DNA from: Raillietiella orientalis
Taxonomy: Eukaryota
DNA: 64,000 nucleotides
Reading direction: 5' to 3'
NCBI GenBank assembly: GCA_036172245.1
Contig: JAYWIR010000006.1
Coordinates: forward strand, 4,030,001 to 4,094,000
Shown: piece after piece, positions 1 through 43,600 of the stretch
Position numbering within the stretch: the stretch's first letter is position 1
Layout of the letters: every line of letters begins with the position of its first letter
Notes under the pieces: generated by a model
The model's database searches: none
Told to the model about the DNA's origin: nothing
What the model saw: only the letters and a program-made list of their open reading frames with translations
Program-made: the position numbers and the translations under genes

Positions 1-82
1 GGGCGTTATGTCTGCCAAATTTTCATGGCTTGTTTACATTATTCACCATCAACGTTCTGTTGCACTTATTTTATGATTTTAG

Positions 83-1368: not shown

Positions 1369-2232
1369 ACTGTGTGAGCACATTTGCTTTCAAGTTTCAG
1401 ATTTTCTCTTTATTTACAGTTTTTGCTTGGCAGTATCATGAGATCTGACAAGACAAATGGACTCTAATTGCTTTTTTTTTTTTTTTATAGTTCTTGTTGA
1501 GAAGTGCTGTTCATAATGTTCTTGCATATTCCAAGACTGTATTAATATCTTGTGAAGTTTTCAAAATTTCTTTGGTACCTGGATAACATCAATGGTTATG
1601 AATATGCACATTTTGAGTACATGCTTCTTCATTTTATGAGGGATGCAAAACTACTTTTTGTCTCTGCAGAGTGCTTGCTTTAAATGATTTGATGGAAATG
1701 TTAGTAATTTCTGATTACAGAGGAAATGCATTTTAAAGGTGTCTCAAATGAGCTCTACACATTAAAAGCAACTATGCACAAAAAATGTTGCAAGAATTAG
1801 ATACTCATGAGTCTGTAGCAAAGCAGTGTACTTAATTTTGTATCACTCATGTTACAAATCACTTCAAGTGATCACAGGTCATAGGAAGAAAACACGAACA
1901 ACCACATGTATTAACAGTAAAATATTGAAACTTGTCTTCATATAAGTTTTAGAACTCTTCTTTAATGGTATGGAACCATTTGCATCAAGTGAGTATGAGT
2001 GCATGTTCATTTAAGAACTTTTCTAGATGCAAGTCTGCATGAAATGAGATTGCAGTACGTATACACAGATAATTCTTACCATGGGACTTTCCGAAAACAC
2101 TCTCCAAACCATGACTGATAGTCTATTTGTTCACAAAAATTGGAAATGCACACAGTTAAAGTTCTTTGCCGTTTTTACACAGAATACAAAGAAAAAGCAG
2201 AATAAGTCGGCAAAAATTACGGTATACACAGA

Positions 2233-2238
2233 TTTATT
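2233..2238 (-). terminator. Probable poly(A) signal AATAAA of PRKCSH
   Basis: tttatt on the + strand, ~115 nt downstream of the PRKCSH stop codon. Confidence 0.5.
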
Positions 2239-2352
2239 TAAATATCAGCATTAGAATTAAAAAAAAAAAATATACACTTATATATCTGTTGCTATAGATG
2301 ATAAAATATCTTTCTAAAAACAGTTCTTCTTGCTTCAGTTGTAGTTCTGAAA

Positions 2353-5300: not shown

Positions 5301-6905
5301 TATATTTTGATTTGTATCCCAAATTATCACAGTGAAATCTCCCATTTGAGCAAGCAGAAGTTCCAGGTTCATCGGTACCATCTAAACAATCGCAGTAGTC
5401 ATCATTTACATATTTAAATTGAAAGCTTCTGCTGCCATCCAAACAAGTAAACTCTTCTGAGGGATCATAAAGTGCAGCATCTAAGCATAAATAAGAAAGC
5501 ATAAAAAGTATCTAAACATACAACATATTCTACTTTCGATAAATCTGTGAAAATGATGTTACAATCATTACAACTGTTATTAAGGTGATACATTCTGTTA
5601 AAACAAAATACTTGAAATGAAATTTATGGAAACATCAACCAAATTGTGGTGATGATTCAATAATCCCAACTGATATAGCAATCATATATCAAATACTAAT
5701 CGAACTTTGAAACAACATCAAGCATTCATGCTGCAAAGAGTTTAAACTCAATCATTAGAATTTTTGAATAAAACTAAAAATCAGTGTTCTTCAAAATATG
5801 GAAAGCAACTTGCTTGCTGAATTGATAACACCAAAATCTACCAAAACCTTGTGCAAACTTGTTACATTTCTGAATCCTTATTTATAAATCCAGATCTGCA
5901 ATAGTAAACAATTTAATGATGCTCATCAATAATTCAAAGTAACAGCCAATTTTGCTTTCTCGATTTCTCAAAATTATTAGATGAAGAGTCATGCATTACA
6001 GGAATAAATAGTCTGAAAACAAATCTTTTCAGTCATCAAATCTCTTGTTTCTCAAATACGAAATATACCCTCACTGTTATCTATCAACCTTAAACGAAAA
6101 TTAACGAAAGAGGTATTCAAGGATTATCATTCAGCAACACAGTCGAATCTACAAAAGACAGCAATACAATCTTGACAGTTTTGTGATGCACGGCCGTGAT
6201 CACCTTATTATGTTCTTGTGGGAGAATGATTTTTTTCCAAATGAACATACCAGAAGAAATCCCAAATAAAGCCAATTTTTTCTAACCTGGAATCAAATTT
6301 TCTTTCTCGATTTCACCAGTAACAGACTTTCTATACAAAATGTGCTTTAATTCCTAGGTTTAAATAGTTATAGGGCGATCAAAACACACACTAAGAAATT
6401 CTGAAAATGACTTGCTGTTGGTTTATTTGGTGCATTTCATATGAAATCCAGTAACGGGAAATTAGATCTATCTGTTTCAACTTCAGATATCCGAGAACAA
6501 AGTGAAACAAACTATAGGCCATGAATTTCCGATAAACAGGGACCTTGCATTAAAATGTGGATTTTCAGTCTACAAACCATGTTAATTTATCCAAGAAATG
6601 AACAACTAAGTTTCCAAAAGTTTGATTCTTAATAGCATTTAGATATTAAACCGCTAAAAAAGAGACATGCAATTCATGCAATTAGGGTGGGTTTGCATCA
6701 AACTTCTTTGTAATTCTCAATGAAACGCTATTTCTTCAAAAGTTACATTTAACGACTTGGTAAGGATCTATAACAGTATCAGGAAGTTGATCTAATTACC
6801 CACGATAGATACTCCTCTTGGACGTAAGTAATTTCCATATACGCCAATTGGGTACAAGAACAGGTATATTATGTTTAAAATAATAATGTATATTTTTGAT
6901 ATCAT
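2353..6905 (-). CDS. PRKCSH: Glucosidase II beta subunit (PRKCSH/80K-H), 11 exons, 539 aa
   Basis: Exons in minus-strand order: 6905-6800, 5480-5268, 4033-3858, 3809-3586, 3535-3457, 3405-3253, 3210-3130, 3084-2973, 2928-2738, 2681-2538, 2493-2353. All introns are GT-AG and the total is 1620 nt. Features: signal peptide MISKIYIIILNIIYLFLYPIG, RPRGVS, the LDLa-like FTCLDG..VNDDYCDCLDGTDEPGTSACSNGRFHC, EF-hands (DLNKDG, DQDKNGEVSEQE), an acidic tract, the MRH domain (CFEY..YIYKLCLF..MKYSHGAACWNGPHRST..SEPSRCEY) and C-terminal HDEL. Confidence 0.97.
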
Positions 6906-8983
6906 ATCACTGCAGCCAGGTGAAAAAGTACTCCGCTAAACGACTGCACGAGGCGACACGTGACACCCGTACATGATGAAGACAATGAGACCCCAGTGGC
7001 TGCACGACACCTTTCCCCTACCTACGAATGCATCCAGGAAATTTCGTGGGACATGGTGTGGAAACCTCTTAACCCAAACGTGGAGATATCCGTGATTTGA
7101 GTCCACTTTGTGATTTCCTTAAAGCCAATAATAATAATAATAACGCGGGGTACAGAACAACCAAATCAGGCAATAAGTAGAAAATTAGAATTTTCAAATA
7201 GCACCATGATGTATTAAGTTCAGCTCTGAAATGTTGACATTACATGGAATTTGTTCAAAGTTTTATATCCTTTATATTAAGCTTTCTTCCTACATATTAA
7301 GTATAGAACAAAATGAACAGGCAACGCACACTGTAATAGTAATTGAACACCACATATCATGTTCACGATTATGAAGAGAACAGAAAATTCCAAAATAAAA
7401 TATAAAATGGAATCTTCGAGAAAAAAAAGGTTTTTATAACCTACTTCACACGTAGTTATAATACATATCGTAAATTTGTAAAGAGTATACACCCTAGAGA
7501 ACAAACAAAAAGGAAACGAATCTAAACTCCTTCCATTCAAAAGATTTAAAACGATACTGAAAAGTTTTGTTAAAAATTGAAGCCATCAAATTTTTAACAA
7601 AGTACGGCGGATGGATGATGATAAAATCATGCTTTCATTTTCAATCATTTTTTCAATCATTAATTCCGGAAAATAATAAAGGCATGGTAGAACCTCAGCA
7701 GCTTAATCTACTGCAAAATTTTTACTGGTTTATTAAATTAATCGAAACTAGGGACTTAACATCCAAGATAAGATGGGTTGAAGATCAGAATTTGAGATCG
7801 TAAGACTAAATCATGTTCTCTTATTAACGAAAACGCACTTTATTTTAAAATTCTTTTCGAAGTTCCTAATGTTGACAACGAATCGATTATTAGAAATAAA
7901 TGCTTGCAAAACAAGCAAAATGACGTGACCATCAATGCTATACGAACTTTATCAGCGTGAATGTTGTCGTCTTATATGCGCCTTCTCGTACTTTCTGAAA
8001 AAATGTGATAGTCAAATCATATACAAAGACTTCTAGGTTGATAAATTGTTGGGTTGTACCAAGCACGCATTTCATCGTATAGGAAAGGTGTCGAAAGACA
8101 GTTAAACTTTTCGTAAGTCTTTCATATGAAAATATATTTGTGAAACAAAATGTTGAACAATGCAACAACTGTTTGGATTCCACCTGGAGCTCTCAAGTCT
8201 TTTCTCGTATAAACATACCTTGAAGCATAAGCTTTAAGGACTTCCAAACGACAAGGAAAAAAAATAAATGCCTTTGAGTGTTTTTGATATGAACAGCCAA
8301 AAATTCAGTCAGCTTTTAAAAATGCTGGAAAGACTTCTGAAAGTTTTTTTTTTTTTTGAATTACAAATTTAAATTATGAAGTGACCTGGGAAGAAATCCA
8401 AGATACATTTCGGTTTGCTATCTATTTAAAAGCTCTAAATGATAAAAATATGTTGAATCTAATAAACGCAAACGTTTTGTTCGCTTTTTAAAAATAGTAG
8501 CAAATTCTTCTTCATTGTCATTACTTTTTGAATAAGCGCCATTTATTATTGAAATAGAATGTATTCTAAGAATGTGAAACTATGTTTCTAATTATGAAAA
8601 ATAAATGTGAGAGATGAAGGTATCTACGAACTGTATATTTTTGAAACTATTTGGCGAACTAAATCCGTTTTCGGATGGGAAAGCATTACTCCAACACAAA
8701 ATAAAAGTTATAATATACACTGTCGGGGTTAGTGTTGACTCTCATAAGCCTCACTCCTAAATGAGGTAGTCAGAATGTTCCCCTTCTCGATTTGGCCGAA
8801 ATGATGTTTTTCGAAGATTTAGATCTATTCTCAATTTCTGTTTATCTAATATGAAATATCTTTCACACATTTAGAATAGCTTGGAAATTGTGTGAAGAAA
8901 ATTTGATCTGAGCAATAATTTCAGTTGGCAATGTTGAATTTTTGAATAGTTCTCAGTTCAGGTGGTACCAGGTGTCTGACTAT
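6906..8983. promoter_or_regulatory. Divergent (head-to-head) promoter interval PRKCSH/TMTC4, locally CpG-retaining
   Basis: The two genes start back to back. CpGs are visibly more frequent here than in the flanking gene bodies. E-box GACACGTGAC at 6955-6964 and TGACGTGA at 7921-7928. Confidence 0.55.
7188..7319 (+). repeat. Dispersed AT-rich repeat, copy A (similar to 9429-9545)
   Basis: Collinear similarity gaattttc(a/c)aatagca..ttaagttca..aatgtt..acattacatggaatttgtt..aaag. The 19-nt core at 7237-7255 is identical to 9478-9496. Confidence 0.7.
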
Positions 8984-11900
8984 ATGCATATTTATTTTTC
9001 ATCATTTGTGTTGTATGTGTTCCTATTTCTGCTCGGTGTTATATGTCATTACCCATGTATCTTTGGGAACTTTGTTTTTGATGATAGAGAAACAGTAATT
9101 AACAACCCAGATGTAACAGGCCAAAGAAATTGGATCAGTAGTTTCCAAAATGATTTTTGGGGAAACAATCTCACTCATAACTCAAGTCATAAATCCTATC
9201 GTCCATTAACAGTATTGAGCTATCGGTAAGAAATGATTCGTTTCTTGCTCGTTAACTTTGTGCAGTAAGAAATTTTGGGTGAAATAGTAATAAGTTGTAA
9301 CTTCATTTTGTAAAATTTCGCGGAAAAGTGCTTGCAAATTATTGTGAATTTATATGAACAGAAGACCAGACGCAAAGTATGTATCGGTGTAATATGTGCC
9401 GGATCACGACCAAAGGTGTATTTGGTATGAATTTTCCAATAGCATCATCATAGGTTAAGTTCAACTCCCTAATGTTCACATTACATGGAATTTGTTTAAA
9501 GGTTCATGTCTTTTATATGTATTAAACATTGAACAAAACTAACAATATATGGAATCATATTCAATATGTAGTGTTATTTATGATTCGTACCTTATGAATT
9601 CCGAGAGACCCCAAAGTTGTATTTTATATGGTGACGTATCATTTGCCTTGTTTGTGATGGTGGTTTGAAAATCTCTATTTCATTGTTCATTTTCAACTCT
9701 CTTCTTTCATTCGGTATGCTTTCAGCAGACCACACCAGTGAAACTGATTTTTATTGCCTGCATAGTAAGAATTTCTGGATAAAATGAATGAAGTAGTCCA
9801 TCTACTTTACACCAGTTTATGTTTAGAACATTGATAGCACAAGCATAGAGACCTCCAAGTTGCCTTGTGTTTTCTAAACACACTGAAATAAGTAGTACAA
9901 TTTAGGATATTGGCATTAATTTTTTTTATTTTTCATGATCCATGGTCATGGAAAGTAAATTAAAGGAATGCTTTGATGGAAATTTCAAGAATTGAGCATT
10001 CCTCATCTTTCATTAAGTAACCTTGCAGCATATGGTTCATAGAAAAAGGACATCAGAAAACTAATAAAAGTCTATTTGTTCAAGGATGTATGTGGTGTGT
10101 TCATTTAGGTTGCAATCTTTGTTTATCCAATCCTAGTGATGTGGATTTTGAAGAAACTATTTATGGATTCTCCTATTCTTATTCGAAATTATTTTTTTAC
10201 ACCTCACATAGAGTGTCTTATTTAGTTTTTTATTTTGTTTTTATACTGAATCATTGTTGATTTAGTTATGATGAAAGAGATAATTCTGGTAGCATATTTT
10301 TCAAATTAACCAACAATTATTACTTCAGAACAAGGTCTATAAAATACAAAAGATTCTCAAACTCATAACTTTGTTTCAACATGAATGCATTGAACTGTCG
10401 AATGTATGCATCTTTTTCATTCAGGTTATTAGCATGTCATCAGTTGCTTTAGATATGCATAAATGAATAATCTGTAATTACATGTTAGCTAGAAAGTTGA
10501 TAATATAATATCATAGGTTGATACTTTCTGGTGTTGTTCTGAAGTAGTGATTTGTCAATGTTCATTTAAGTGTTGTAAAAATAGTGTACACATTTCATTA
10601 TAATTACTTAAAAATGTTGGTTTGTGAACATGTTCACTTCATGTAGATTTAATCCAACCCAAGTGCAGTTATTAGTCAAGCTGGAATAACTGCAGCCTAC
10701 GTGATTATCATCACACATGCAGGATATCACAGTGCCACATGTTGCCTAAACTGTATAAGGATTCAGAAAAATTCTTGTATTTATGTACATGACAAAATTC
10801 AAAATATTTAAATATTAAAAAGTGAACTGCGTGAACATACTCAATGTAGAAGATGGAATATTCCAATATGTTGGTTTCTATATGTAATTCCCTTGCAAAA
10901 ATGAACATCAGTCTTGAGTTTAATTGTATCTTGTAATTAGTTTTGCTTAGCAAGTGCCATCAAAGGGAATGGCAGTTTTTGTTTCGAAAAGAAATTTTTT
11001 TTGTATAAAACTCTTTTTTCACACAACTTAGGTTTCATTTATTGTCTTATTTCAGTTTTAACGTTTGGATTGAAGGACAAATAAACCCCCTGTCATTCCA
11101 TGTGATCAACATCATGTTGCATGGGATAAACTGCATGCTGATTCTGAAGGTGTATTCTGATATTGTGACAAAACCTTGGTCTTTAGTTGGGGCTTCCTTG
11201 TTTGCAGTTCATCCTATAAATACAGAAGCAGTAAGACATATTTGAATATACACTGTTTGTTTAAATGAGAATTTCAAACCTTTGAATACTTTGAATTTCT
11301 TTTTAATTAATTTCCAGTTTGTGCGATGTCATTATTTTTGAGTGAAAAGCATGTGAAAAATCATTTCAATTAACAAGTCAGTGTTGTTCCAGGTATGTGC
11401 CATTGTTGGACGAGCTGATTTATTGTGTGCCTTATTCACAAATCTGTCATTGTGGGCATACAAAAGACATATGTGCCATTCATCCAGACAAAAGTGTCTT
11501 TCAATGCTTCTTTGTTTTATTTCTGCAGTCTTTGCACTTTTATCCAAGGAGCAAGGCATTATGGCTCTGGTATGAATTGAGTATTAAATATGCAGTATCT
11601 AATTAAGTTTCTCAAACATAAGATTATATGTTTATTGTATGATCTTTTCCTTGGTGTTGGAGTTCAGTTTTTTATGTTGAAAGCTTACTTCAGAATAAAT
11701 TATATTTTAAAATTAAAGCAGTGTGTTGGATATGAATATCTGTTCAGAACAGTCATGCTTTTTTTCATGACACTATTATTGTTACACTTCAGATTAAAAA
11801 TAATGGAATATTCAACACCAACATTCAGCATTAATGATAATCCATCTGCATTTATGGATTCCAAAATTTTTAGGGTAAGTATGATTTCCACATTGTGTAA

Positions 11901-14900
11901 ATTCTGTATCAAATCAGATTGGCAGAATGTTAATTTCTTAGTTTTTGGTCCCTGCATAATTTCATTCCCCAAATAAATTCCTGAGAAAGCAAATCTTTAA
12001 AAGACATTAATAATACATATAACATAAAACAATTTTATATATGGTAATTCATGAATTGTTTCTTGATATCTAGATATTGAATTATAACTATATTTATTCT
12101 ATAAATTCATTGCTCCTCATATATCCACATTGGCTTTGCTTTGATTGGTCAATGGGGTGTATACCAGTCATCAAAGATGAGAAAGATTACCGAATATGCT
12201 TTGTTTTTGTATTTTGGGCAACATGCTATATATGGATTCAAAAACTCTGGAAGTGTCAAAACTTTCAACAAAGGTTCCTTTTTGTTGTTTACAACCACAT
12301 GTTTTATTGACAAATTTTTTTCAGGCAAATTGCTTTTGTTTCGTTACTGATGTTTATTTCTTTCCTACCTTCAATGAATATTTTTTTCACTGTTGGATTT
12401 GTAGTAGCAGAACGCAACTTGTATTTTCCTGCATTGGGATTTTGTCTCATTGTTTCTATTGGATATCAGAAACTTGCATCTATGTACCCTGTGTCATGGA
12501 AAAATCTGGTAAGGATGTTTCAAATGTTAAGTGACGTTTATAAATGGATTTTAATTAATTCATTGAAATGATTTTTATTTATTTTAAAATTGGCTGCCAG
12601 CAGCATCATTTTTTGATTATGCACAAAACATATTTAGTGGGCACATTTTCAAATGCTGTGCCATGATTGCTTATCCTTTTTAGGTAGAGTTTGTATATAA
12701 TGTTTTTCCTTGTCATCTGATTGTGTTCCTGTTTTTGGACGAATGATAAAACGTAATTTGCATTTAGGGTTTCAATCATGACTATTTTTGTTTGCATGTT
12801 GGTTGTTTGATTCAGACACTTAGTTTTTAAACCTTAGTTGTTGTGGTATTTTTTATTCTTAGTTCCAACTCTGATCCCAAGTAAGTTCAAGCATTAATTT
12901 CCAGATTTTGAAGATGTGCATCGTTTACCTTATTTGTATCTTCTTTATCAAAAGTTTGAGAAGAAGTGGACAGTGGGTTGATGAAGGTGCATTGTTTCCT
13001 TCAGATATTGCAGTTTGCCCTTGGAATGCCAAGATCCATTACAATATTGCCAAACTTTTTGGAGACAGCGGAAACTCTCTACTGTCGGAAAAATACTATA
13101 AATCTGCTATTAGGTAAATTAATTTGTCATTGTCATTTTTCTGCAAATAACCATAGCAGAGTACTAAATGTGTATATGTGTATCTTGCATAAATAAGATC
13201 ACTTCTGTAGAAGTAATTTGTGTGCCTATTTATTTTATGATTCTAGTTGGTAATTGAAAGTAATATGCAAGTTGATTATAATTATTAAAATCTTTCAGTC
13301 TCAATCCAAGATATGAACATGCAATGAATAATTTAGCCAACATTTACAAAGACAGGGGAATGTGGAATGAAGCAAAAGATTTACTTTTGCAAGCAATACA
13401 TTTGAGGTGAGTGATTTTTACAGAAAATAATCTTCAACATTCATATTGTTGCATAGAAATTTTGGCGAAACAGGCTGGATTTTTTTTTTTAATTACGTCG
13501 CAGTTATCAATCATGAAAAGGAACCTAGTAAAAGATGTATTTTTTATTTTTTCCATGCGTGTAATTCGCCCTAGATTAGTGCCATGTGCATAGAGGCCCA
13601 CTATACATTCCATTTTTAATGAGTCAGTTTTGATGTCTATTTGTTTGCATGGAAGACGTTTGATTTTTCATGTAACTCTCGAGGAACTGAAGTTCTCAGA
13701 TCTACAGACAACTTGCATTAGAAAGCAACCAAATGAAAAATTTCAGTTCTCATCTTTAGGCCTGGTCTTCAGATGCAAGCCTTTTTACATGTGCAGTGGG
13801 AAAATTTGTTAGTACTTTGCGCTTGAAAAGGAAATCCAGATTTAAGCACACCATGAAACAGCATTAAAAAAATGGAGTTGTATGTTCTTAATGCAGAGAT
13901 TCTTATATGGCAGGGGATGTTTTCATGATGAGAAAATGGAAAATGAAGCAAAAGAAATAACACGAGCCTAGAGATTGTATTGTCTTGATGGTGTTTATTG
14001 TTAGGGCATTTCCATGTTGTGTTGGGCAAGATTGGCGTGAGTAAAGGTAAAGTTTGCAAGGTTCATTGGGCTACACATGACTTTCCTTATTAGCATCATT
14101 CAATCATTTGTAAGACCAAATCTTTTTTTTTTTTTTTTCATTTTCTAAAGTTTCACAGTCGAATGGAATGAGAAGAACCTGTGAAAGTCATTAGAATGAG
14201 CTTACAATTAGAATGATATCCTGGAAGGTGCTGAAGTGCTCAATCTTACACCAGCAATTAAATTCATAATTAGTTCATAGATGTATACTGGTTACAAATT
14301 ACTGTTGCTGCTTCACCAAAGGAATGTGCATAGGAGATGCGTATTATGTTTTATTCAATTAATACTTTGTGGAAGGTTGCGTACTAGTTGTCGTATTATC
14401 ATGTAAATGTTTGTCTTGTTATATCATAATGTTTGATATTTACCTAGGATTTCAAGACCGACTTTTCTTTGAAATATTAAGAACTTAATCTATCCAATTT
14501 ATATGAAAGAATTGTTTAAAAATTTATTTAGAAACAAGGAATAGAAATGATCTCCTCTTAGATGTTGTATCACTTGGAACTAAAAAGTGTGATTTGAAAA
14601 CATATCTTTCAACTTGGAGTGAAACCTATTGTCTGAATGTAAAATCTGTCCTATTTGCAACACTCTTGTTGAATTACGATTATTGATATTCCCTGAGTGC
14701 ACATGTGTAAAGCTGCTTTGTTGTAGATCAGATTTTGCTGCTGCTTGGATGAATTTAGGAATTGTGGAAATTTCTTTGAAGCATCCTGAAAATGCAGAGA
14801 AAGCGTACTTCAAGGCATTGGAACTTAGACCCAAATATGCAGACTGTTATTTTAATTTAGGCAATTTGGTATGTACAATTAGTACATTAAAATGTCATTA

Positions 14901-15901
14901 TTCATGTGTTTGGGTTTAATCTTTTTTCTCATGCACACACAGATCTTGAGTTAGAAACAAATTCTTGTGTGAACGATGGTCACGTGCTGCAATTTCCGAA
15001 TAGAGTACGATGTAGTGTTTCTTCTTGAAACCGTATTCTGTATAGCCACGAAACAGTTTACCGAGTAAACGTAGTATGTTACAGATAGGATGACGAACAG
15101 TTCTTTGAATATAATTTCGTTATTATTCTAGGTTTTCTTTTTAAAGGCATGAAAAATAAACTCGGTTTCTTTGTTGCTATGCCAGCTGAAATGGTTGTGT
15201 ATATATCATGTGTTTCCTTCTGGAAAAGGATGGAACTTGAAATTCTATAAATTACTGGATGGAAGTGTTGGAATGAACATAATATATTTAGTATTTTTAA
15301 CTTTAAAATTCTTGATCTAATACCCCAAATAAAATATTTAATTATTGATGTTTTTGAAAAATCCGTAATCTTTTATGTGTATTTAAAAGTATTTGGAAGA
15401 AAACAAAAAGTCTCAAGCTTTAGCAGCATGGGAGAAGGCTGTTGCATTAAAACCTGATCATAAACATGCGTGGATAAATAAGATTATTTATTTGGATACT
15501 GCAGGTAATGTTAATGTGTTAATAAAGTAGAATAACTTGTTATTGCAAATTCAGATCAGTGTGGGAAAGCGGTTGTCGAATGTGAAAAAGGATTGGCCCT
15601 CCTGCCTAATGAAGCAGGTTTACATTTTGCCTGCGCCAATTGTTTTGGTAAAATAGATCAGTACGAACAGTCAGAGAAGCATTTCCACAAAGCAATTGCT
15701 CTACAGCCAGGGAACCCTACCTATGCCACTAATTTAGGTGAGACTGAAAAACTTGATGAATACTTTAAGTGCTTTGAAATCCAAGGTATCTTGTATCATC
15801 GGTGGAAGAAGTATGATTTGGCTAAAGAGATGTATCAGTATGTGTTGTCATTCCGTCCAGATTACATACCAGCCCAAAAAAGTCTATCAATTCTTCCCTA
15901 G
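8984..15901 (+). CDS. TMTC4: Protein O-mannosyltransferase TMTC4 (multi-pass TM region, DUF1736, TPR repeats), 12 exons, ~700 aa
   Basis: Exons 8984-9225, 11056-11230, 11393-11569, 11623-11874, 12074-12273, 12325-12508, 12905-13113, 13299-13406, 14727-14868, 15390-15504, 15555-15737 and 15786-15901 join in phase (2103 nt). TMTC motifs: FVFDD, NDFWG..SHKSYRPLTVLSYR, LFAVHPINTEAV..IVGRAD, SKEQGI, DNP, PHWLCFDWSMGCIP, VGFVVAERNLYFP. TMTC4-type motifs: CPWNAKIHYNI, DFAAAWMNLGIV, LYHRW. The start ATG at 8984 is inferred. Confidence 0.93.
9429..9545 (+). repeat. Dispersed AT-rich repeat, copy B (in TMTC4 intron 1)
   Basis: Same orientation as copy A at 7188-7319, sharing the 19-nt identical core and similar flanks. 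Confidence 0.7.
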
Positions 15902-16044
15902 TTTACTGAAAACCTCAATTAATATTTAAGATTCTTGTAATATGTGGAACTGAATGGTGTCCTATTTTCAGAATATATTGTTAAAGACATTAAGTTTTCT
16001 CGATGATTTGAATATTCATGTAATCACGCATTTGCGTATTGATT

Positions 16045-16366
16045 ATGGCATTGAGGCCAAATATCGACTTAAAGTCTCGGGAATTGTTCATGCGTTGGTT
16101 TTCAACTCCAGGAGTGCTTGAACAACTGAATCAGGATATTGCATGCATAATTTCAGGTCTGCATTGTGCCATATACGTAGTTAATATTTATGAATGTCAT
16201 GTTTTAATAAGGAAAGGGAACGCAGATTCTACATGAGCTGCAAGTTCAGTTAGAAAGAACAAAAGCGTTAACACAAAGACAAGATACAGCACCTCCTCCA
16301 CCATCACCCAATGCTTCCATTTGTAGCAATATTTCGAAATCATTGGAAAGTCAGTGTAATAAACAG
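16045..16366 (+). CDS. PP2A B'' N-terminal exons 1-2 (AT-rich codons)
   Basis: ATG at 16045; GT-AG intron 16157-16211 (55 nt). Exon 2 encodes ..QDTAPPPPSP.. and ends in phase 0 at cag|gttag, compatible with the phase-0 exon at 35861. Confidence 0.75.
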
Positions 16367-25300: not shown

Positions 25301-28300
25301 GAAGAGAGCATGACGGATCTGTGATGTTCACCTTTTATGGGGGGGGGGGGGTCGAACAGTGTCTTACATGTTTGGCTGCTAAATGAAAGGGTGGACGGGC
25401 GCCCAGTTGTGTGAACGCGTAGGGCATGGGGGAGAAGGAGGGGGAGGAGGGTTGGGGTGGCGGGAAGGAGGGGAAGGAGAGCGGGGGGGGGGGAAGACCA
25501 TTGCCACTCGACCTTTTCTGTTTGTGTCTCGTTACTTGGTTGATGGGACATAATTTCCGGCAATTTGCGCGCCCGTGTGTTTTTCGATAATCAATGGAAT
25601 GTGCAAATGTCTTCCTTTCTCTTGGCTGTCTTCAAAGCCGGTGCGCACGCGCGCGTGCCCGCGTGCGCTTTTGCAGCCGTAGGCCAGGTGTCACGTGCGC
25701 GACGATTGTGGGACCACCGGGGGGATTGTTGCGTCGCGACGTGATTGTTTGTCCGAGAGTCAGGCCTTGCACCTGGCAACGCTTTAGTGCACAGCGGTTA
25801 TTTTTTTTTATCTTTTCGTATGCGTGCGTGTGCGTGTTACCGAAACCTGACCGTGATGTGTGTGCTCCTCACCCTTCCCGAGTGTGTTGCTTGCGTTCTC
25901 ACGACTGTCGCTGAAAGAAAAGAAAGAAAGAAAAAAAAAACGCTCGATTTTCGACTGCGCCCGTCCGTGCCGTTGCCATTTTTATTCTCCGCGCGCTCCG
26001 TGCTCGGCAGCCACGCGTCACGGCAAGCCGCCGCATGTGTTGCCGGTTGCCGTGCGGAGTGTTCCGTACCTTCGTGTTGATACGAAAAAAAACAGTTCCG
26101 AATCCGTTCCGTCCATCCGGAAAACAACGGTTGGTAATACTGTAATAAAGTGCCCGTGTGTTCCCATATTGTGCCGTGGATTTTTTCTTTTTTCTTTTTT
26201 CTTTTGGAATCTCGGATGCGGCTTTTCGTCCGCTCTTTTATGCTGGTAGCGAAAATGGATCGCCTGGTTCCGTCCGGGCGTGCTTCACGATCCCACAGGC
26301 GCAAGTGTAAGTTGTAAGAGCCCGTTTTCACTTTGGTGACGAGGCGGGGAAAGAAACGTCCCCGTATCTATTGCACATTTTCGCCTGGGGTCTTGTCGTC
26401 GTCGCAGTCCGGCGCCGTTTGACCTTCCATTCCCGAAGGAAAAGCGGAGGTGGGTGGGTGGGTGGGTGGGGGGGCAGCGAGCAGTTCGAATTTCCTATGG
26501 AGATTCATTCATTCATTCATCTATTTACTTATTTTTATTTTTGTGCTCTCTCTCCCTCTCCCCGTCTTGAGCACACGCAGCGCCTTCTCGCGCGCGCACC
26601 GTTCGCCTCCTTCCGAGGATTCTATTTTCAGCCGCGGCTTGGCACGCACGTCCATTTGTTCCTTCCTCCTTCGGTTTCGCCCGCGTTCGCTTCGCTCAGA
26701 CGCGAGTGATGCGCGCTGGCGAACGGTGGCTCCGCCGCGATACGGATTTCTCGCGTGCATGTGCGTGCATGTGTGCAGCTATGTGTTCGATTTTGAAGTT
26801 TGTTTGCAGATCTGCTGCTGTTTGTTTGTTTTTCGTCGTTGTTTCTCCTTTTATTTTTCTTTTGTTGTTTTTGTTCGTTGTCTCTTTTGCTCCGTCATCA
26901 CGAATTTGTGTGTGCCGTGTGAAGAACACGAAGCAGGCTGGTCATGCCCCCCCCCTCCCCCTCCCCTTCTCCTATTCACCCGACGCAGTGTGTGGGAAAA
27001 TCTTCCTGTTTGGGGAAATGTGAAGCTGTGAAATAATTTCTTGTTTCCCCTCAGGGATATTGTTCTTGTGTTCGGATTACTTGTGCTGTGTTGGCCGTGG
27101 CGTGCCGAGTGCAGCCCATGATTTTCCCTTAGTGACGCGTGTGAGCTCTTCTTCGTGTGGCATAGTTGATAGAGCGTCCCGGTGTGGTCGCGATGTTCCT
27201 TCCCCCCAGTGTACTGTCGCCGGAATTTGGTCGTCTCTCAGGGAAGGAAACGAGGAAGGAAGCGGAAGGGCATCGGGGTGTTTGTGGTGGTGATCCTCTG
27301 TGAACTACACGCGACGAGACGACGGAACTCACAGCGCTCGGAGCGCATCGGGATGATCTCACGGCCGCTCAGTCGGAGCTAACCGAGATAGAGCAGCTGA
27401 TCTCTGACCATGCTGAGGTCTTGTATCAGAGTTGGAGGGCAACCGGCGTCCACCCCGCCGACATGAAAATTCCCGTCCCTGATCCCGCCGCAAGGGCAGG
27501 TGCCGGGACCGCCTCCCGCTCCCCAAAGCCCGAGTTCAATCCTGTCGACCTCATCGGAGACCCCGACCTTGAGGACAAACTGAAAGAACTTGTGCACAGC
27601 TTCATCACGGAAGACAAGGCGAAGCAGGCCATTTACCGGAAGCAGAAAGGAGCGCAGCAGCATCCCTCCCCAACTGTATCCCGTGACAGCGACGACGACG
27701 GCAGTAGCGGCGGTGGTCGAGGGGACCACCGTCATCAGCACCACCACCCTTTCTCCAGGCGGAACGGCCCCCAGCCGGAACGGGAAGGTGGCGCGACCAC
27801 GCGGGTGACGGTGGCGAAGAAGCACCCGATGCGGTCTTCATCCGGCTTGTCTCGCGAGGAACCGATCGCCGTTGCCTCTCCTAATGGCGAGAATAGCCGC
27901 CTCCGCTCGCCTTTCCCCATGCCGGACGTTCCCCTCTCCAGCGGTGCGCGCGCTGCTTTGACTGCGAGAGACGGAAGCTACGCCAGGGAAGACGAAGACG
28001 ACGAAGAGGTGGAGGAAGAGCCGGGAGAGGAAGAGGAGGACGAGGAAGGGGAAGAGAAGGCGAACCTTCATGGTAACGATGAAGGCGAAGTGGAAAGAGA
28101 GCAGGCTTCCGGCCTGATCACATGGCCCGGAGGCAGTGGAAGGGGAGTGGCAGGGACGACGGCGACGAGGTGGAGGTCCGTCGAGCGATTCTGCTCGTCA
28201 TCGTCATCGTCGTCGTCGTCGTCTTCGTCGTCCTGCTCTACCTCCTCGTCCTCCTCCTCTCAGTTCGCCACGTGGAGAAACGGCTGCTCCTACCGAAAGG

Positions 28301-31300
28301 AAACAGGCAGGTTCCGTACCTCCGCCACTGCCGCATCCCCCCTGCCTTTGGATGCGAGGGAGCTGTCCAGCCAGCTGGAACTCACGGAGGCAAGCTTCCT
28401 CGAGGCCCTGAGGTTGAATCCGGGCGACAGCGAGCCTCGCTCCCGGGGTTTCGACGACGGTCGCCATGACGACATCGACGGCAGCAACGACGACGATGGC
28501 GATGGCGATGGCGAAGAGGGAGCCGATGACGGCATAAGGACAGCAGCTGCGAAGGCAGCACTTCGCCGCTGTCACGGCGAAGCGAGGTGCCGCCCTCGGA
28601 GTGACTTCTTCGAAGACGGGCTACTTCTGAGAGCCGCTTCAACCCACGAAGAGTCCAGCCGGAAGATGAGGATGTCCGTAGCAACTGCCCGTGGCGGCGG
28701 GGACTCCGACTTCTCGCGGAGCGCGCGCGCGCCGGCAGAGCGCTTCGGCATCTGCGTGACCAGCGCCGTGGACTATGCGAAGGGCCGGTACCGCGCCGCC
28801 CAAGAGCGCTCATCCGCGAGCGTTCGGATGGCAAGAGGCGGGGACGGTGGTGCGTTCTCGCCGCCATCCGGCGACCCGCGAGCGGCTTGCGTTGTCCTCG
28901 GCAGGAACGAGTTATTGTGCGTCGTGCCCAGCGTCCACGAGACGAGATCGAAGTTTGAAAGCGGAGGGAATTGCTTGGCAGCCACTGGCCCTGCTCTTGG
29001 GCGCCAGGACGCCTCGGGCAGAGCGCGCCGCCCCATCGAAACGGCCCGGCCCTCCCCGTCGTGCGACTCGATCTCCGCAGCCACCGACCCTTCCTTGAAA
29101 GTCGGCAGCAAGAGGTTTCGGAGGGTGCTGTCTTTCGAGCCGGCGACCGCCGGCGGGCTCCCGCACGGCGGGCTCCTTGCTGCCCCCGCAGCTAGGGAGC
29201 AGCAGCCATCCGCGGCGGCGACGGCGGCGGTCGGAGTGCCAGTTCGCCCATTCCTGACTCTCGGCTCTGTCGCCGAGAGGGTATCCATCTTCGAGAGGTG
29301 CCCGTCATCGTTATCCTCGTCGCCCTTCGAGCGCCGAGACGACGCGTCCTCGCCCCCGCTCCTCGGTCCCGCGGCCGAACAGCACCAGCCGGAGGGTGCC
29401 GGCGGTGCGGTATGGAGGGCGAGCGACGCCGCCCGCGCCCATCACCACCAGGAAGAGGTGAGTGAGAGCTTGGAGAGAGGGAAAAGGGAAGGGAGCGGGG
29501 AGGATGGCATCCTTCTCGGACGCACTCGGGACTCGATATTGTTCTCGGACGGAGAAGAAATCCTTCCTCCCGGTAACGTTTCCTCTTTGTCCTCCTCCCA
29601 CCACCACGAACAAGCAGCCGCAGGAGCAGCAACGACTGTGCAATTCCAATTCTGCACGCTGCGCCCTCTGGGAAGGATTCCTGCTGTCGCTATCGTTTCG
29701 AGCGTGGGCGGGCTCGAGCTGCGGAAGCGTTCGTACTCGTCGACTAGTTGGTTTCTATTTGGTCTCACGGAACGTCCGGGTTCGTGGTACCCGAGCTGCC
29801 TGCTTCCCCCTTTTTTGCAGTGGCGCTTCCCACGCCTCTTCTCGCTTCCCCCGTCGTTGTGCATTGGTGGCAGATACAATATGATAGCACCAGCGGTCCC
29901 TTCCTTCCGAAAGTCACGATTAGAAGTGGCCGTGTAGGGTGCAGTGCACATGTGTGCGTGAGCGCATGCGCGTACTGGTAGGACAGGCTCTCACGGGTTC
30001 GAAGACCGGCGCTTTCCTCGCCGGCAACGCAGCGGTCACGGAGAAACCGGTGGGACATGATTCCTCCTCCTCCTCTGCTAATACGAAGGATACGTTCGCT
30101 CCCCCGAGACCATCTCCTGCATGATTCGTCTTGGCTGCAACCTCCATCTTCTCGCCCAGGACGCCCCTAAAGCTGCACTGTTTCGTTTCGTTTTCAATTT
30201 TCTTCGAATGACCGTCGAAATCCCAAAACGATAGGAGCCGCTTCATCTTTCGTAATGTGCACGCACCCACACAAATGCACGTGCACTCGCGCTAGACGGC
30301 GGATGGCTTCGAAATGGTTTGTTTCCTTGGCAATGAACGCGCCGCACGATTTTAGAAGCAGCGGGACGTCGCAAGATGCGCGTGCACCTGTTGGAACTGG
30401 GGTATTTTGCCCAGTTCATGTTGCTCTTAAGCGCACACCGCGGCAATCACCAACGAAGTTCGTGAAATCATGAAACCTACCAAGTGTGATGACGTCTTTT
30501 TAATGGTTCCGCGCGGGATTTCCAGTTGTTCAAAAACTCACTCTCCTTAAGGTCCAGCACTCCCCATTTGGTGTTTTATGGGTTACGTTACGAATGTGTC
30601 GTTGAAAAGTATTTCGTACCGCCACTTGGCTGTATAGTGCATGCGAAGAACACTATATGGTCATGGGCAGGCAGGGCAAGGCTTCTCTTATTGCCGGTGC
30701 ATACAATGTATTACATTGTATTGGGTTTCCACCTCGGCTGCACGTGAAAGCACGCGCCCGTTCACCCACAAATACCAAGTAAAACCCATAGTAAAGTCAC
30801 TGCTGCATGCGCTCGTTGCCTTCCCTTTCGTGTGTATCCCGTAACCATGGTAATCAATTTTGGACGCCGTGCTTTTCCTTACCATGGTGAACTGCAAACA
30901 ACCACGGGACAACATGCAATTGAATGGTTGTCTTCCAAGTGTGCCACAACGACACGCAATTCATTGCATTTGTGGTCGACCCTGCGAAATCGTTGCGCGT
31001 GCGTGTCGTGCGTGATCACACCCCTTCCCTCCCCCCCCCCATCCAGAACTCATCTGTTCCGAAAATAAGCACTCACACTTAAACACAATGAAGTTTTTAT
31101 TTATTCATTGTGGAATGTTCACAGGGAGCAACCCACGTTATTTCCTCTGTAATGGGGTCGGCGTTCGGAGAGTACACACACTTTGGGATTGTCCCGAGTC
31201 GTGTTTTTCTCTCCTCTTCCTTGCCAACCGTTTGCACGGATGTCTGTACGGCAGAGATATGTATCCGAAGTTATTGTCACGTACCCTAATCGAAATCGTT

Positions 31301-40600: not shown

Positions 40601-43600
40601 CAGGCAGGTGCAGTGCCCCACCCACCCAGCGATCCAATTCGCTCTCCCCCTCTTGCGCTGTTCTTTCCTCCTTCCCACTCCACTTGCCTCTGTTGCCTCC
40701 TCCATGTGGGGGCGCTTCGGACGTTGACGTCACGCTCGGGGGGGAACACGGCGCGAACCGCCATCGTTTCGTCCCGGGTCAGTCGTCCACGTTGCTTACC
40801 GTGATTGCGTCTTGCAGATTCTACTTCCCGTTCGGCCGCCCACAAGCTGCCGACGCGGCGGTGCAGTCCAGGGTTGTCGACCTGTTCCGACAGTTTCCCG
40901 ACTCCTGTTTGCCGCAGGACCACTGCGGGAGCTTAGCAAAGGCAAGAACCTGCCCCATTACCCCCCATCTTTAGATTCGTGTTCCGTCCACTCTCTTCCC
41001 CCACCCCTGTAAACCACCCCAACTCTCTTTCTCCGCGACGCCTTTCGTGGCCCCCTCTCCATCCGTCCATTCTGTCCTTAGGCATGTGGGTTCCCCCTTT
41101 ACTGGAAAAGACCGCTGTTCTTGGCAGCTCAAGAAGACCACCGTGAGGTTCTGGAATTGAATGCCTTCCGGGAGTTTTTGGAAAGGTAAGGCGCCGTTTT
41201 TGTTCTTGGTTTCTTCATGCCCTCCTTCCTGTTACACTCCTCTCTTCGTTGAGCCACTTACCCCGGGCTCGTACGAGTGCTCCTTACCGCGGTCGGTTGG
41301 ACCGTTTTTCATTCTCTCCTCCTGAGGTGGTTGAGGAGGTGGCCGTGGCGCACTTACGTCGTGCGGAAAAGGGGAGAGCTGCAGGCAGACGCTTCCCTAC
41401 TGCCGGCCGTTTCGTTCTCCTTACTGGCTCCTCCCCCCCCGCACTGGACGTCCTCCCAGAGGTGGTATGCCAGTCTTTGGCCACCGGTCGGTGGTGGCGG
41501 TGGTGGTCTTCCCAGCGTGGAATGAACTTTGGACGAACTCCTTCCATGGCGTGGCATATCCCTACGTGCTTACTCTCACCGAATGCGTGCGCTACTGCTG
41601 CCGCCGTCGCAGTTCCGGGCGCATGCCACGAAAGGAGGAAGCGGAGTTTCGCTCTGCGGATCTCTTCAGGCTCCGGTCTTGCTCGCGTCCATTTGCAGCA
41701 GCAGCAGCAGCAAAAGGGCTCGGCTCTCATCCTCCATGGCTATGGCCCTCCCTGCACACACTGCGAACTTCTGGCGGCGTTTCTCCCGGTCCGGCGGAAA
41801 GGGCCTCGGTCGAGACCGAACGCGCCCTTGACCTTCGCGCGAAGCGGAGAAGCCTCGCGAGTAGAGGAAGCCTCCCTGAAGCCTTTCCCCCGTGGCCCCT
41901 CCCGTCTCATCCCGGACCACGACACCGGCGATGCCTCACATCTCCGCGTGCTCACCCTTTCCACCGCCAAGGAGCTGGGGAAGGGCCAGTTACCCCACCC
42001 CTTTGCCGCCGCGGACCGGAACGAAAACCAGAGACCTCCGCCTCCTACTTTTTCTCCCGCTGCGACCTCATTGTCCTTGACCTTGGTCCCACGAGACTGT
42101 GGCATCGGATGGTCTTTTTCATACGCTCGTCCTGGGATGGGAGCTCAGATGGGCACGTGAAGCCATCGTAAGCGAGAGGGGCGTGTGTATTCCTGCCTAA
42201 AAAGGGTAGGTAGGAGGGCGCTCGCATCGACGAAGGCGCTGTTTGATGCGAGCGGGCTGCCCGGCGCGTTCTTCGATGCGAGCGCCGGGCTGCGGCGGCG
42301 AAGCTCCACGAAAGCAGCACCTTCCGCGCGACCTGTGACGAGCCGGGCAACAGCAGCGGGATAGTGGGTGTTTCGAACCGCGCGGGCGGCAATTCGTTTT
42401 GCGCGCAGGACCGGACGTCGCCGTTTCCACCCGGAAGCGACGTGCTCTCCGTTGATCGGAGGACGCGATCAGCTTCCGTTCTCTTTGAAGAGTTGTCCGT
42501 GTGCAACGGAAACCGCTCCAAGAGTGGTGGACAGTGGCGCGTGAGACCTCGGCCCGTGTGTTGGTGATGCTGCGGTGGGGCGGGAGCGACGGTAACCACG
42601 TTCTCTCGAGTTTCGGACGCTGTTTGCTCTGTGGGAGCAGAGGAAGAGGAGCAGAAAAGCATACTGCAGAGAAGGGCAGGGTAGGGTCCGAAAAGGAAGA
42701 GGAGGAGGTGCGAGGGGAGCATTCGTTTGCGGTTGGTTCTGCAGAGGGGAAAGACATGGGGGGGGGGGGGCTGATGACTTAAGGTTCTCGTCCGTCGCGG
42801 AGGATTGCGGAGTGCTCCATTGGGGATGCTCCGTTCGGCGGCACCGAGAACCAGGAGAGAGAAGCACATCCCGGTGGGATGTGTCCGCCGCCGCCTGTCG
42901 CTTCCGCCCTTCGAGAGCTCCTTTGCGCGGGGGGGAGGGGGTGCCAGAGTCCACTTCGGAAGAGTCGCGTTCTGCCCGTCTCCATGAATGCACGTGCAGC
43001 GAGTGCGTTTTTACGTTCGCCGTTCAGTGTCGCCTCTTCCGGGAATGGTGGTGGGCCGTCCTTCGAGCACTCCCGATGCAGGCTCGAGGGTCTTGCCGGC
43101 GCTCGGCTGTTCGCCGCCTCGTGCAGGATACCGCAACGCACACGTCAACGCACCTTCGTCTCACCAGTGTGTTGGGTCAGCTGATGCGCACCCCTTCTGA
43201 CTCCCTCGGGTAGGAAAGAAAAAAAAAAGAATGGCCCGTGGTAAAAACTCGCAGGTGTGGACCGGACAGAAAGCTGCAGGAGTGCATCTGCACCTAGCGC
43301 GCGAAACAGCGAGTACACGCCGCGCCAGCGGGCTGGCGCCATCTAGGCAGAGCAGCGAGAGTGCGCGCCTCTGCCAGCAGGAGGCGACGAGATGGCTCCA
43401 GCCCGCTGGCGCGGCGTGTACTCGCTGTTGCGCCAGTGATCGCCGCCGAAAAGCTGCTCGTGTCGGAGGAAAATCGCTCCGCGGTCACCCCGTGATGACC
43501 GACTGCCCTGCCTCGATAATACTCAGAAAAAGTCGCTGTGCAAATGTCTCTGTTGTCGCTGTGATGATGAGCGCACGTCATTGCAGAGCTCGCGATCTGC

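What the first reader, a model, noticed from the sequence alone, without database searches (positions are those of the whole stretch)
15902..16044. Operon-like junction: 143 bp from TMTC4 stop to PP2A B'' ATG, with an orphan TTTTCAG acceptor and no poly(A) signal
Seen: TMTC4 ends at 15901 and the PR70-like ATG is at 16045 on the same strand. The gap has no AATAAA/ATTAAA; the first AATAAA is at 16358-16363, inside PP2A exon 2. The gap does contain cctaTTTTCAG (15965-15971), 73 nt before the ATG, and an in-frame TAA after it rules out a fusion protein. There is little room for a 3'UTR, promoter and 5'UTR. Established: nematode SL2 operons have ~100 bp spacers with a TTTTCAG trans-splice site, SL trans-splicing occurs patchily in other animals, and dicistronic mRNAs occur in Drosophila. 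Inference: the short PP2A isoform comes from a polycistronic TMTC4 transcript (trans-splicing or dicistronic mRNA), from a 5' exon shared with TMTC4, or from a promoter buried in TMTC4. Acceptor-like sequences also precede the PRKCSH ATG (tactttttcacctggctgcag|tgatATG) and the TMTC4 ATG (aatttcag, ending 8924).
Basis: partly seen in the sequence, partly recalled or inferred. Interest (0 to 1): 0.72.

Follow-up and report, generated by a model that had tools for sequence, protein, structure and literature searches.

The report
Tight gene pair, possible crustacean operon
In what is probably a tongue worm (a parasitic crustacean), a sugar-transfer enzyme gene ends only 143 bases before one form of a phosphatase-regulator gene starts; this fits a worm-style shared transcript cut up by leader splicing, but a hidden promoter inside the first gene is a serious rival and no RNA was available to decide.

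Summary
The layout is real. TMTC4 ends at its true C-terminus (15901), and ATG 16045 opens a real PR70-type PP2A B'' first exon. The spacing is what counts. I confirmed three other same-strand pairs 12-77 nt apart and one at about 90-220 nt, all CpG-poor at the junction. The scan had already noted many such pairs in this genome, one with an RNA-based leader claim that I could not check. COX1 places the animal with pentastomids, not nematodes. Against the operon reading, this junction has an isolated CpG patch with an E-box 0.9-1.1 kb upstream, inside a TMTC4 intron, which may be a buried promoter. No leader RNA gene was found. Best reading: co-transcription resolved by leader trans-splicing at 15972 (about 0.42). 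Rivals: buried promoter 0.22, start inside the gap 0.13, shared first exon 0.12. It is not an SL2 operon.

The parts
8984..15901 (+). TMTC4 coding region, 12 exons, 700 aa; last exon 15786-15901
   Evidence: Spliced frame open end to end; tblastn with P0241; Pfam TMTC_DUF1736 E 2e-18
6750..9500 (.). CpG-undepleted region between divergent PRKCSH (ATG 6905, minus strand) and TMTC4: inferred shared promoter zone
   Evidence: CpG o/e mostly 0.7-1.6 against 0-0.5 in most gene-body bins; promoter role inferred
8728..8924 (+). Candidate 5' UTR intron of TMTC4 (donor 8728, acceptor 8924); the exon before it could be a shared leader exon
   Evidence: Donor score 4.4; background 3 such sites in 6150 nt; use not shown
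14974..15164 (.). Isolated CpG patch (11 CpG in 190 nt) in TMTC4 intron 14869-15389, with GTCACGTG at 14979 and a modest donor at 15074: candidate buried promoter
   Evidence: Permutation p 0.0002 within the gene body; single copy; no RNA family at gathering score; fold z 0.16
15902..16044 (+). 143-nt stop-to-start gap
   Evidence: Sequence; not structured, z 0.69
15917..15922 (+). AATTAA, possible variant poly(A) signal of TMTC4
   Evidence: function inferred only
15950..15954 (+). CTGAA, branch-point-like, 17-21 nt before the end of the AG
   Evidence: consensus recalled; use not shown
15965..15971 (+). TTTTCAG acceptor-like site, best AG of the gap
   Evidence: Score 2.96; donors inside the gap all score -1.2 or less, and the best of them would give 35 nt against a shortest local intron of 42
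15972..15977 (+). AATATA, second variant poly(A) hexamer, directly after the acceptor
16003..16023 (+). Two minimal upstream frames (ATG-ATT-TGA; ATG-TAA) in the would-be 5' UTR
16045..16156 (+). PP2A B'' first coding exon with the PR70-type N-terminal motif
   Evidence: donor 16157 scores 1.7
16212..16366 (+). PP2A B'' exon 2 (Pro/Ser-rich linker), in frame with exon 1 across a 55-nt intron
   Evidence: donor 16367 scores 5.5; its splice partner downstream was not found
27304..29937 (+). Long alternative N-terminal exon of PP2A B'' (PR130-like isoform)
   Evidence: tblastn pieces hit by up to 59 of 120 homologs, best E 2e-13
40818..45758 (+). Shared PP2A B'' core exons (EF hands)
   Evidence: Pfam EF-hand_13 E 3e-29

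Best explanation
The short (PR70-type) isoform of PP2A B'' is the downstream member of an operon. Polymerase starts at the TMTC4 promoter (about 7-9 kb) and runs through TMTC4 into the PP2A gene. The TMTC4 message gets a 3' UTR of at most 70 nt, cut near the weak AATTAA or at the acceptor itself. A capped spliced leader is added at 15971|15972 and gives a message with 73 nt of 5' UTR before ATG 16045. The long isoform starts separately in the GC-rich region. SHOWN: both genes, the spacing, the acceptor-like anatomy, and other tight pairs in the genome. INFERRED: co-transcription, the leader, the leader RNA and the cleavage site.
For: Both ends are authentic. The order of elements suits a resolution site: variant hexamer, branch-like CTGAA, pyrimidine run and AG, with no usable donor in the gap. 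Tight same-strand pairs recur in DNA I read myself: DUF4538/SMIM20 to ANAPC4 12 nt, a transporter-like gene to QARS1 36 nt, REXO4 to CNBP 77 nt, AHCY to a kinase 87-150 nt to the first candidate ATGs (families). For ANAPC4, CNBP and the kinase the 1.5 kb before the ATG holds only 9, 9 and 11-14 CpG, whereas 14 of 17 unpaired genes with at least 1 kb of flank hold 26-73. Pairs that appear to have promoters between them are about 2 kb or more apart (PRKCSH/TMTC4 2078 nt; QARS1 to RPB3 about 2.6 kb with a CpG-rich gap). Leader splicing is documented in calanoid copepods (PMC4664967, passages). Most Ciona operons lack AATAAA, 16 of 18 (PMC1488885, passages).
Against: The acceptor and the missing canonical signal are at chance level. 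Good acceptors before start codons are not significantly enriched: 7 of 18 unpaired genes against 26% background, p 0.16. This junction has a CpG patch of 11 in 200 nt upstream, against 3, 4 and 7 for the ANAPC4, kinase and CNBP junctions (the QARS1 value of 11 is the upstream gene's own 5' region). It also has the highest CpG count after the ATG among the tight pairs, 18 in 500 nt. No leader RNA gene turned up. Two tiny upstream ATGs would remain in the leader-spliced message. The ANAPC4 and CNBP gaps have weak acceptors (-4.8, -1.3), and 3 of 17 unpaired genes are as CpG-poor upstream as operon candidates (9, 17, 21). The tight pairs were not an unbiased sample: two were followed from earlier notes and one lies beside them. 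Convergent pairs are tight too, so some compaction is general.
Confidence: 0.42

Rival explanations
1. A promoter buried in TMTC4 intron 9 (CpG patch 14974-15164) drives the short PP2A isoform. The acceptor at 15971 then receives either a short non-coding exon in cis (donor 15074) or a spliced leader that removes an outron of about 0.9 kb.
For: The patch is significant within the gene body (p 0.0002), single copy, unstructured and not a known RNA. It carries GTCACGTG. CACGTG occurs in 21 of 289 promoter-like bins (9.2 expected from resampling) and 3 of 340 gene-body bins. Low CpG marks methylated gene bodies and promoters are mostly spared in honeybee (PMC2975444, passages).
Against: The patch is 190 nt, while the CpG-rich zones before most first genes span 1 kb or more. 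Patches also arise elsewhere: 10 rows (9 distinct places) in about 75 kb of CpG-poor DNA, of which two are in the TMTC4 5' region and at least three in coding exons. The donor at 15074 is ordinary (30 as good in 6150 nt). A cis splice would have to skip three TMTC4 exons, and 26 ATGs lie between the patch and 16045. The patch could be a decayed insertion or an enhancer.
Confidence: 0.22
2. Transcription starts inside the gap (about 15975-16040) from a compact promoter overlapping the TMTC4 3' end; the TTTTCAG is incidental.
For: CpG returns from 16001 (o/e 0.93-0.96 at 38-40% GC in 16000-16500). AATATA at 15972 could end TMTC4 near 15995. The acceptor is at chance level. A 3' UTR overlapping the next 5' UTR is treated as unremarkable in Drosophila (PMC4528330, section 8).
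Against: 15902-16000 has no CpG. A similar CpG ramp is seen at the other edge of this AT-rich block (window -12750 to -12250), so it may be a boundary effect. This reading does not explain gaps of 12-77 nt elsewhere.
Confidence: 0.13
3. TMTC4 and the short PP2A isoform share the TMTC4 promoter and a non-coding first exon: donor 8728 splices either to 8925 (TMTC4) or, skipping all of TMTC4, to 15972.
For: A strong donor exists at 8728. Shared promoters with 5' non-coding exons are annotated for 130 Drosophila genes (PMC4528330, section 8). No new machinery is needed.
Against: It needs skipping of 12 exons over 7 kb past many good acceptors. The exon upstream of 8728 is not shown to be transcribed.
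Confidence: 0.12
4. A dicistronic mRNA carries both frames (one exon 15786-16156) and PR70 is translated by reinitiation or internal entry.
For: 143 nt lies inside the range of obligate Drosophila polycistronic loci, -34 to 319 nt; 159 dicistronic pairs are annotated there (PMC4528330, passages). There is no canonical poly(A) signal in the gap. The 12-nt SMIM20-ANAPC4 gap fits this type best.
Against: Reinitiation after a 700-codon frame is inefficient (recalled); four ATGs lie in the gap; the gap has no stable structure.
Confidence: 0.06
5. Exons 16045-16366 are a relic that is no longer expressed.
For: The exon joining exon 2 (phase 0) to the core (phase 2 acceptor at 40817) was not found.
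Against: Motif, frame and both donors are intact.
Confidence: 0.05

Closest known systems
SL-resolved operons with a single leader class: Ciona intestinalis and Oikopleura dioica (PMC1488885 passages; PMC7986045 passages)
   Same: Unrelated housekeeping genes head to tail; acceptor just before the downstream gene; usually no AATAAA upstream; 0-30 nt between poly(A) site and acceptor, which this gap would allow.
   Different: There the leader, the dicistronic precursor and the poly(A) site are shown by cDNA; here none is. Here the downstream unit is one isoform of a 30-kb gene that also seems to have its own start.
Chaetognath operons, Paraspadella gotoi (PMC12460157 passages)
   Same: Candidate operons were defined as genes less than 250 bp apart; this pair meets that cut-off.
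   Different: 1,470 of 2,151 candidates were validated by leader reads there, so spacing alone is not proof. That animal lacks gene-body methylation, while this genome shows CpG-depleted gene bodies.
Caenorhabditis SL2-type operons
   Same: About 100-nt spacing and a TTTTCAG site.
   Different: Host is an arthropod; no AAUAAA before the site; TTTTCAG is not the dominant acceptor here (1 of 25); SL2 is described as a clade V nematode speciality (PMC1488885 passage).
Copepod and amphipod SL trans-splicing (PMC4664967 passages; PMC7986045 passage)
   Same: Crustacean precedent for leader splicing.
   Different: [quoted passage not shown]
Drosophila dicistronic loci and shared-5'-exon gene pairs (PMC4528330 passages and sections 7, 8)
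   Same: Arthropod genes with stop-to-start distances in this range, or sharing a promoter and non-coding first exon.
   Different: No leader is involved; they are solved by translation or by cis splicing.

Membership tests
SL-resolved operon (any animal) | Same-strand genes very close together | tested here: met
   143 nt stop to start; both ends authentic
SL-resolved operon (any animal) | Unpaired splice acceptor before the downstream start codon | tested here: inconclusive
   Good site at 15971 with no usable donor in the gap, but at chance frequency, and distant donors exist at 8728, 15074 and 15738
SL-resolved operon (any animal) | Downstream gene lacks its own promoter | tested here: inconclusive
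   CpG-poor up to 16000 but an isolated CpG patch at 14974-15164; CpG is only a proxy
SL-resolved operon (any animal) | A spliced-leader RNA gene exists in the genome | tested here: inconclusive
   Rfam SL1 no match, with a control that rang nowhere; no leader-donor-Sm family in 3 or more copies in 983 kb of fetched DNA (overlaps included), under 0.5% of the genome
SL-resolved operon (any animal) | Leader joined to the mRNA at the acceptor; polycistronic precursor | not testable with these tools
   Needs RNA reads over the junction
C. elegans SL2-type operon | Nematode host with SL2 snRNP | tested here: not met
   Chitin_bind_4 14 matches, Col_cuticle_N 0 of 3 candidates, COX1 with pentastomids; the SL2 family itself was not searched genome-wide
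C. elegans SL2-type operon | AAUAAA about 100 nt before the acceptor (feature recalled) | tested here: not met
   No AATAAA or ATTAAA in the gap
Ciona-type operon without intercistronic DNA | Upstream poly(A) site coincides with the downstream acceptor | not testable with these tools
   Needs 3' end sequencing; AATTAA at 15917 would suggest a cut 20-35 nt earlier
Ciona-type operon without intercistronic DNA | Usually no AATAAA within 40 nt of the upstream 3' end | tested here: met
   but expected by chance in about two thirds of windows
Drosophila-type dicistronic locus | Stop-to-start distance within -34 to 319 nt | tested here: met
   143 nt
Drosophila-type dicistronic locus | Mature mRNA spanning both frames | not testable with these tools
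   Needs long reads
PR70-type PP2A B'' subunit | N-terminal motif at residue 1 plus EF-hand core | tested here: met
   the linking exon between exon 2 and the core was not found

The most novel reading that the evidence does not exclude
A pentastomid crustacean has evolved leader-resolved operons across its methylated housekeeping clusters, an arrangement my searches did not find described for any arthropod. At this locus the operon supplies only one isoform (the ancestral PR70 first exon) of a large, otherwise separately promoted regulatory gene, so that isoform choice is tied to read-through from the TMTC4 promoter.
Probability: 0.4. Interest if true: 0.78.

Novelty: new member of a known kind. 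Interest (0 to 1): 0.5.

Why it matters
Leader splicing is known in copepods and amphipods, but operons were stated as unreported there in 2021 (PMC7986045). My searches found nothing on pentastomids (0 papers) or on Argulus (0 papers). If true, arthropods gain an independent origin of leader-resolved operons, in a genome that keeps the CpG footprint of gene-body methylation, unlike the chaetognath case. That gives a direct test of the proposal that trans-splicing substitutes for gene-body methylation (PMC12460157 passage). It would also give a parasite-specific RNA-processing step and a leader primer for full-length cDNA. This junction is a weaker flagship than the 36- and 77-nt pairs, but it is the one where an operon and a buried promoter can be told apart in one 5' end experiment.

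Tried and rejected
RNA: the one search for sequencing runs (14500-16500, kind rna) gave no RNA holder listed, so no reads were laid; this says nothing about expression.

Leader RNA gene: Rfam SL1 on the genome, no match and control silent. Rfam on the window 0 matches; on 14700-16500 one sub-threshold viral intron RNA hit, taken as chance. U1, U2 and 5S loci were located, but I saw no shared upstream element from which to search for further snRNA-type genes. Flanks and 350 kb of fetched 5S/snRNA neighbourhoods gave only 5S, U1 and U4 (one search scanned 15 of the 20 stretches). Pattern scans gave no convincing leader anatomy; one search listed 16 repeated hits among 100 keys, up to 4 copies, which I read as repeat-array sequence.

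Retrocopies as fossil mRNAs: a partial PRKCSH copy and a CNBP copy exist, but are 70-90% identical and decayed or rearranged at the 5' end, so no leader can be read. The Ras-family search (18 of 30 loci inspected) gave no retrocopy with a leader. No retrocopy of the PR70 exons appeared.

snoRNA or structured RNA in the CpG patch: not supported. TMTC4-PR70 fusion: excluded by four stops. An intron inside the gap: best donor gives 35 nt. Nematode origin: rejected. A possible tight pair before REXO2 (202 nt) was dropped from the count, because the three upstream frames have no Pfam match; it shows 24 CpG in 1409 nt upstream, like this junction. A possible pair before METTL16 was dropped as probably its own 5' region. 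The linker exon to the PP2A core was not found. The sigma-70 scan does not apply to an animal.

Full report
OBSERVATION. The coordinates are right. TMTC4 splices into 12 exons and a 700-aa frame from ATG 8984 to TAG 15899-15901. Its end aligns to residue 691 of 693 of a butterfly TMTC4, so the stop is the real one. ATG 16045 aligns to the first residues of PR70-type PP2A B'' proteins of an annelid and a bat. A profile built from the 3 of 120 homologs that carry this motif ranks the frame first of 1704 in the window (E 1.3e-4). Exon 1 (16045-16156) and exon 2 (16212-16366) join in frame across a 55-nt intron. A long alternative N-terminal exon lies at 27304-29937 and the EF-hand core at 40818-45758. 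I did not find the exon linking exon 2 to the core. The gap is 143 nt, with TTTTCAG at 15965-15971 and no AATAAA or ATTAAA; four in-frame stops exclude a fusion.

CHANCE. With a matrix from 25 local acceptors (21 from verified frames, 4 from EBP2 placed by eye), the site scores 2.96; 6 of the 25 score higher when left out. An AG as good occurs in 189 of 726 overlapping 143-nt windows of local non-coding DNA (8967 nt), and TTTTCAG in 53 of 726. Both canonical hexamers are absent from 493 of 726. So neither signal is informative alone. Variant hexamers exist (AATTAA 15917, AATATA 15972). Donors in the gap are weak, and the best would give a 35-nt intron against a shortest local intron of 42. Across 18 unpaired genes, 7 have an acceptor this good within 150 nt of the ATG, not above background (p 0.16).

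THE ANIMAL. The genome (210 Mb, 491 contigs) has 14 matches to the arthropod cuticle domain and none to the nematode collagen domain. The three best COX1 hits are pentastomids at 72-73%, ahead of insects at 68-71%. In a tree of the query, those 3 and 17 insects picked from the 120 hits, it groups with pentastomids at 100/100. The branch is long and no other crustaceans were in the set, so 'probably a pentastomid' is the limit of the claim.

CpG FOOTPRINT. The first 16 kb are AT-rich, and gene bodies are CpG-depleted (o/e 0-0.5 in most bins), while the stretch between divergent PRKCSH and TMTC4 is not. From about 17 kb the DNA is GC-rich and undepleted. In honeybee, low CpG marks methylated, compact housekeeping gene bodies (PMC2975444, passages). 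I use this as a proxy only; methylation was not measured. Inside TMTC4 intron 9 there is an isolated patch of 11 CpG in 190 nt (14974-15164; p 0.0002). It is single copy, unstructured, not a known RNA, and carries GTCACGTG. CACGTG is enriched in promoter-like bins (21 of 289 against 9.2 expected; 3 of 340 gene-body bins). Such patches are uncommon (9 distinct places in about 75 kb), but several fall in coding exons, so the patch is a candidate and not a proof. CpG also returns from 16001; a similar ramp at the other edge of the AT-rich block suggests a boundary effect.

GENOME CONTEXT. Earlier notes of this scan list many tight pairs in this genome; one reports an RNA-supported leader at REXO4-CNBP. 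I could check DNA only. I confirmed: a transporter-like gene to QARS1, 36 nt, with AATAAA and an acceptor 4 nt before the ATG; REXO4 to CNBP, 77 nt, AG 5 nt before the ATG. I also found DUF4538/SMIM20 to ANAPC4, 12 nt, and AHCY to a protein kinase, 87-150 nt to the first candidate ATGs with the start uncertain. Pfam supports these families except the transporter (no match) and DUF4538 (below cut-off); the gene symbols are recalled or taken from the notes. Upstream of ANAPC4, CNBP and the kinase there are 9, 9 and 11-14 CpG in 1.5 kb; 14 of 17 unpaired genes have 26-73, and three have 9-21. This junction has 24, nearly half of them in the patch. A sixth pair (before REXO2) was dropped because its upstream frame is unverified. 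The sample is not unbiased.

LEADER RNA. Not found: Rfam SL1 (control silent); flanks of U1, U2 and 5S; 350 kb of their neighbourhoods; pattern scans over 983 kb of fetched DNA. Two retrocopies were too decayed to show a leader. This covers under 0.5% of the genome and cannot show absence.

MECHANISM. The recurrence of 12-150-nt gaps without a promoter footprint makes co-transcription likely in this genome. With the copepod precedent and the unverified RNA note, leader splicing is the simplest way to cap the downstream messages. For this junction I give 0.42 to a TMTC4-headed operon resolved at 15972; 0.22 to a promoter in the intronic patch (cis exon or outron); 0.13 to a start inside the gap; 0.12 to a shared non-coding first exon from donor 8728; 0.06 to a dicistronic mRNA; 0.05 to a dead exon. 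These odds are judgement. They lean in part on a note I could not test; without it I would put the operon near 0.3.

COMPARISON. It would work like the single-leader operons of Ciona and Oikopleura (PMC1488885, passages; PMC7986045, passages) and meets the under-250-bp screen used for chaetognaths, where 1,470 of 2,151 candidates were validated (PMC12460157, passages). It is not an SL2 operon. Membership in 'SL-resolved operon' is undecided: spacing met, acceptor and promoter tests inconclusive, leader untestable. Arthropods have leader-free alternatives: 159 dicistronic pairs and 130 genes sharing 5' non-coding exons in Drosophila (PMC4528330, passages and sections 7-8). Copepod leader splicing is shown in PMC4664967 (passages; 'operon' occurs 0 times). 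Douris et al. 2010 was seen only as a citation. No supplements were read; they could hold crustacean operon data.

NOVELTY. Searches: 'pentastom' with 'trans-splicing' 0 papers; 'spliced leader' with 'Argulus' 0; four-term arthropod/operon search 25 papers, 24 listed; crustacean/operon search from 2020, 7 papers, 5 listed; on copepod leaders and dicistronic loci. By listing and abstract start none describes leader-resolved operons in an arthropod; the library omits most subscription journals. If true, this is a known kind of system in a new lineage. The scan has noted the pattern before on other DNA of this genome, and this junction is one of the less clean examples. Interest 0.5.

Noticed in passing
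L017-L028 (G000, several contigs); L138: The 12 best U2 snRNA matches all lack the first 30-40 bases and start at about the same point after an A/T-rich tail; one other locus keeps only the 5' part. This looks like insertions of a U2-targeting retrotransposon (Keno/Utopia type; names recalled).
   Followed up: partly
L030-L033, L034-L038: Complete U1 snRNA copies sit directly before a LINE-like first frame, some in arrays with a period of about 5.5 kb; at least two families.
   Followed up: partly
L009:2767-3066 (G000:C6 about 3952770-3953070): A small DUF4538/SMIM20-type gene ends 12 nt before the ANAPC4 ATG, after 4.5 kb of CpG-poor DNA with no evident frame: the tightest pair seen, more like a dicistronic or shared-exon unit.
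   Followed up: partly
L061:5283-6012 (G000:C6 about 1075400-1075700): AHCY stop followed within about 90-220 nt by an HRI-like kinase (name recalled); a run of A near its start may hide a frameshift or assembly error.
   Followed up: partly
L126:940-1170 (G000:C1): An unidentified frame ends in an ATGA overlap with a short frame resembling a mitochondrial targeting peptide just before REXO2; an acceptor lies 36 nt before the next ATG.
   Followed up: no
L072/L073 (G000:C38:1151951-1152689) and L131 (G000:C22:3060295-3061064): Old processed pseudogenes of PRKCSH and CNBP; the PRKCSH copy confirms two intron positions.
   Followed up: yes
window 1-16400 versus 17000-60000: Sharp two-compartment layout: AT-rich, CpG-depleted compact housekeeping genes with 42-56-nt introns beside GC-rich, CpG-undepleted long genes; the PP2A B'' gene straddles the border.
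   Followed up: partly
window 15901-15972: A splice from the GT formed by the last base of the TMTC4 stop to 15972 would rebuild a stop (TAG to TAA); the donor scores -5.0, so probably coincidence.
   Followed up: yes
L004:1774-2966 (G000:C282): After COX1 a short stretch is repeated and a decayed COX2-like piece precedes the intact COX2; 54 COX1-like matches genome-wide point to many nuclear mitochondrial copies.
   Followed up: no
window 6910-6930 (minus strand) and L061 about 3750-3765: A TGGCTGCA word follows a T/C run shortly before the ATG of both PRKCSH and AHCY; possible core-promoter element.
   Followed up: no
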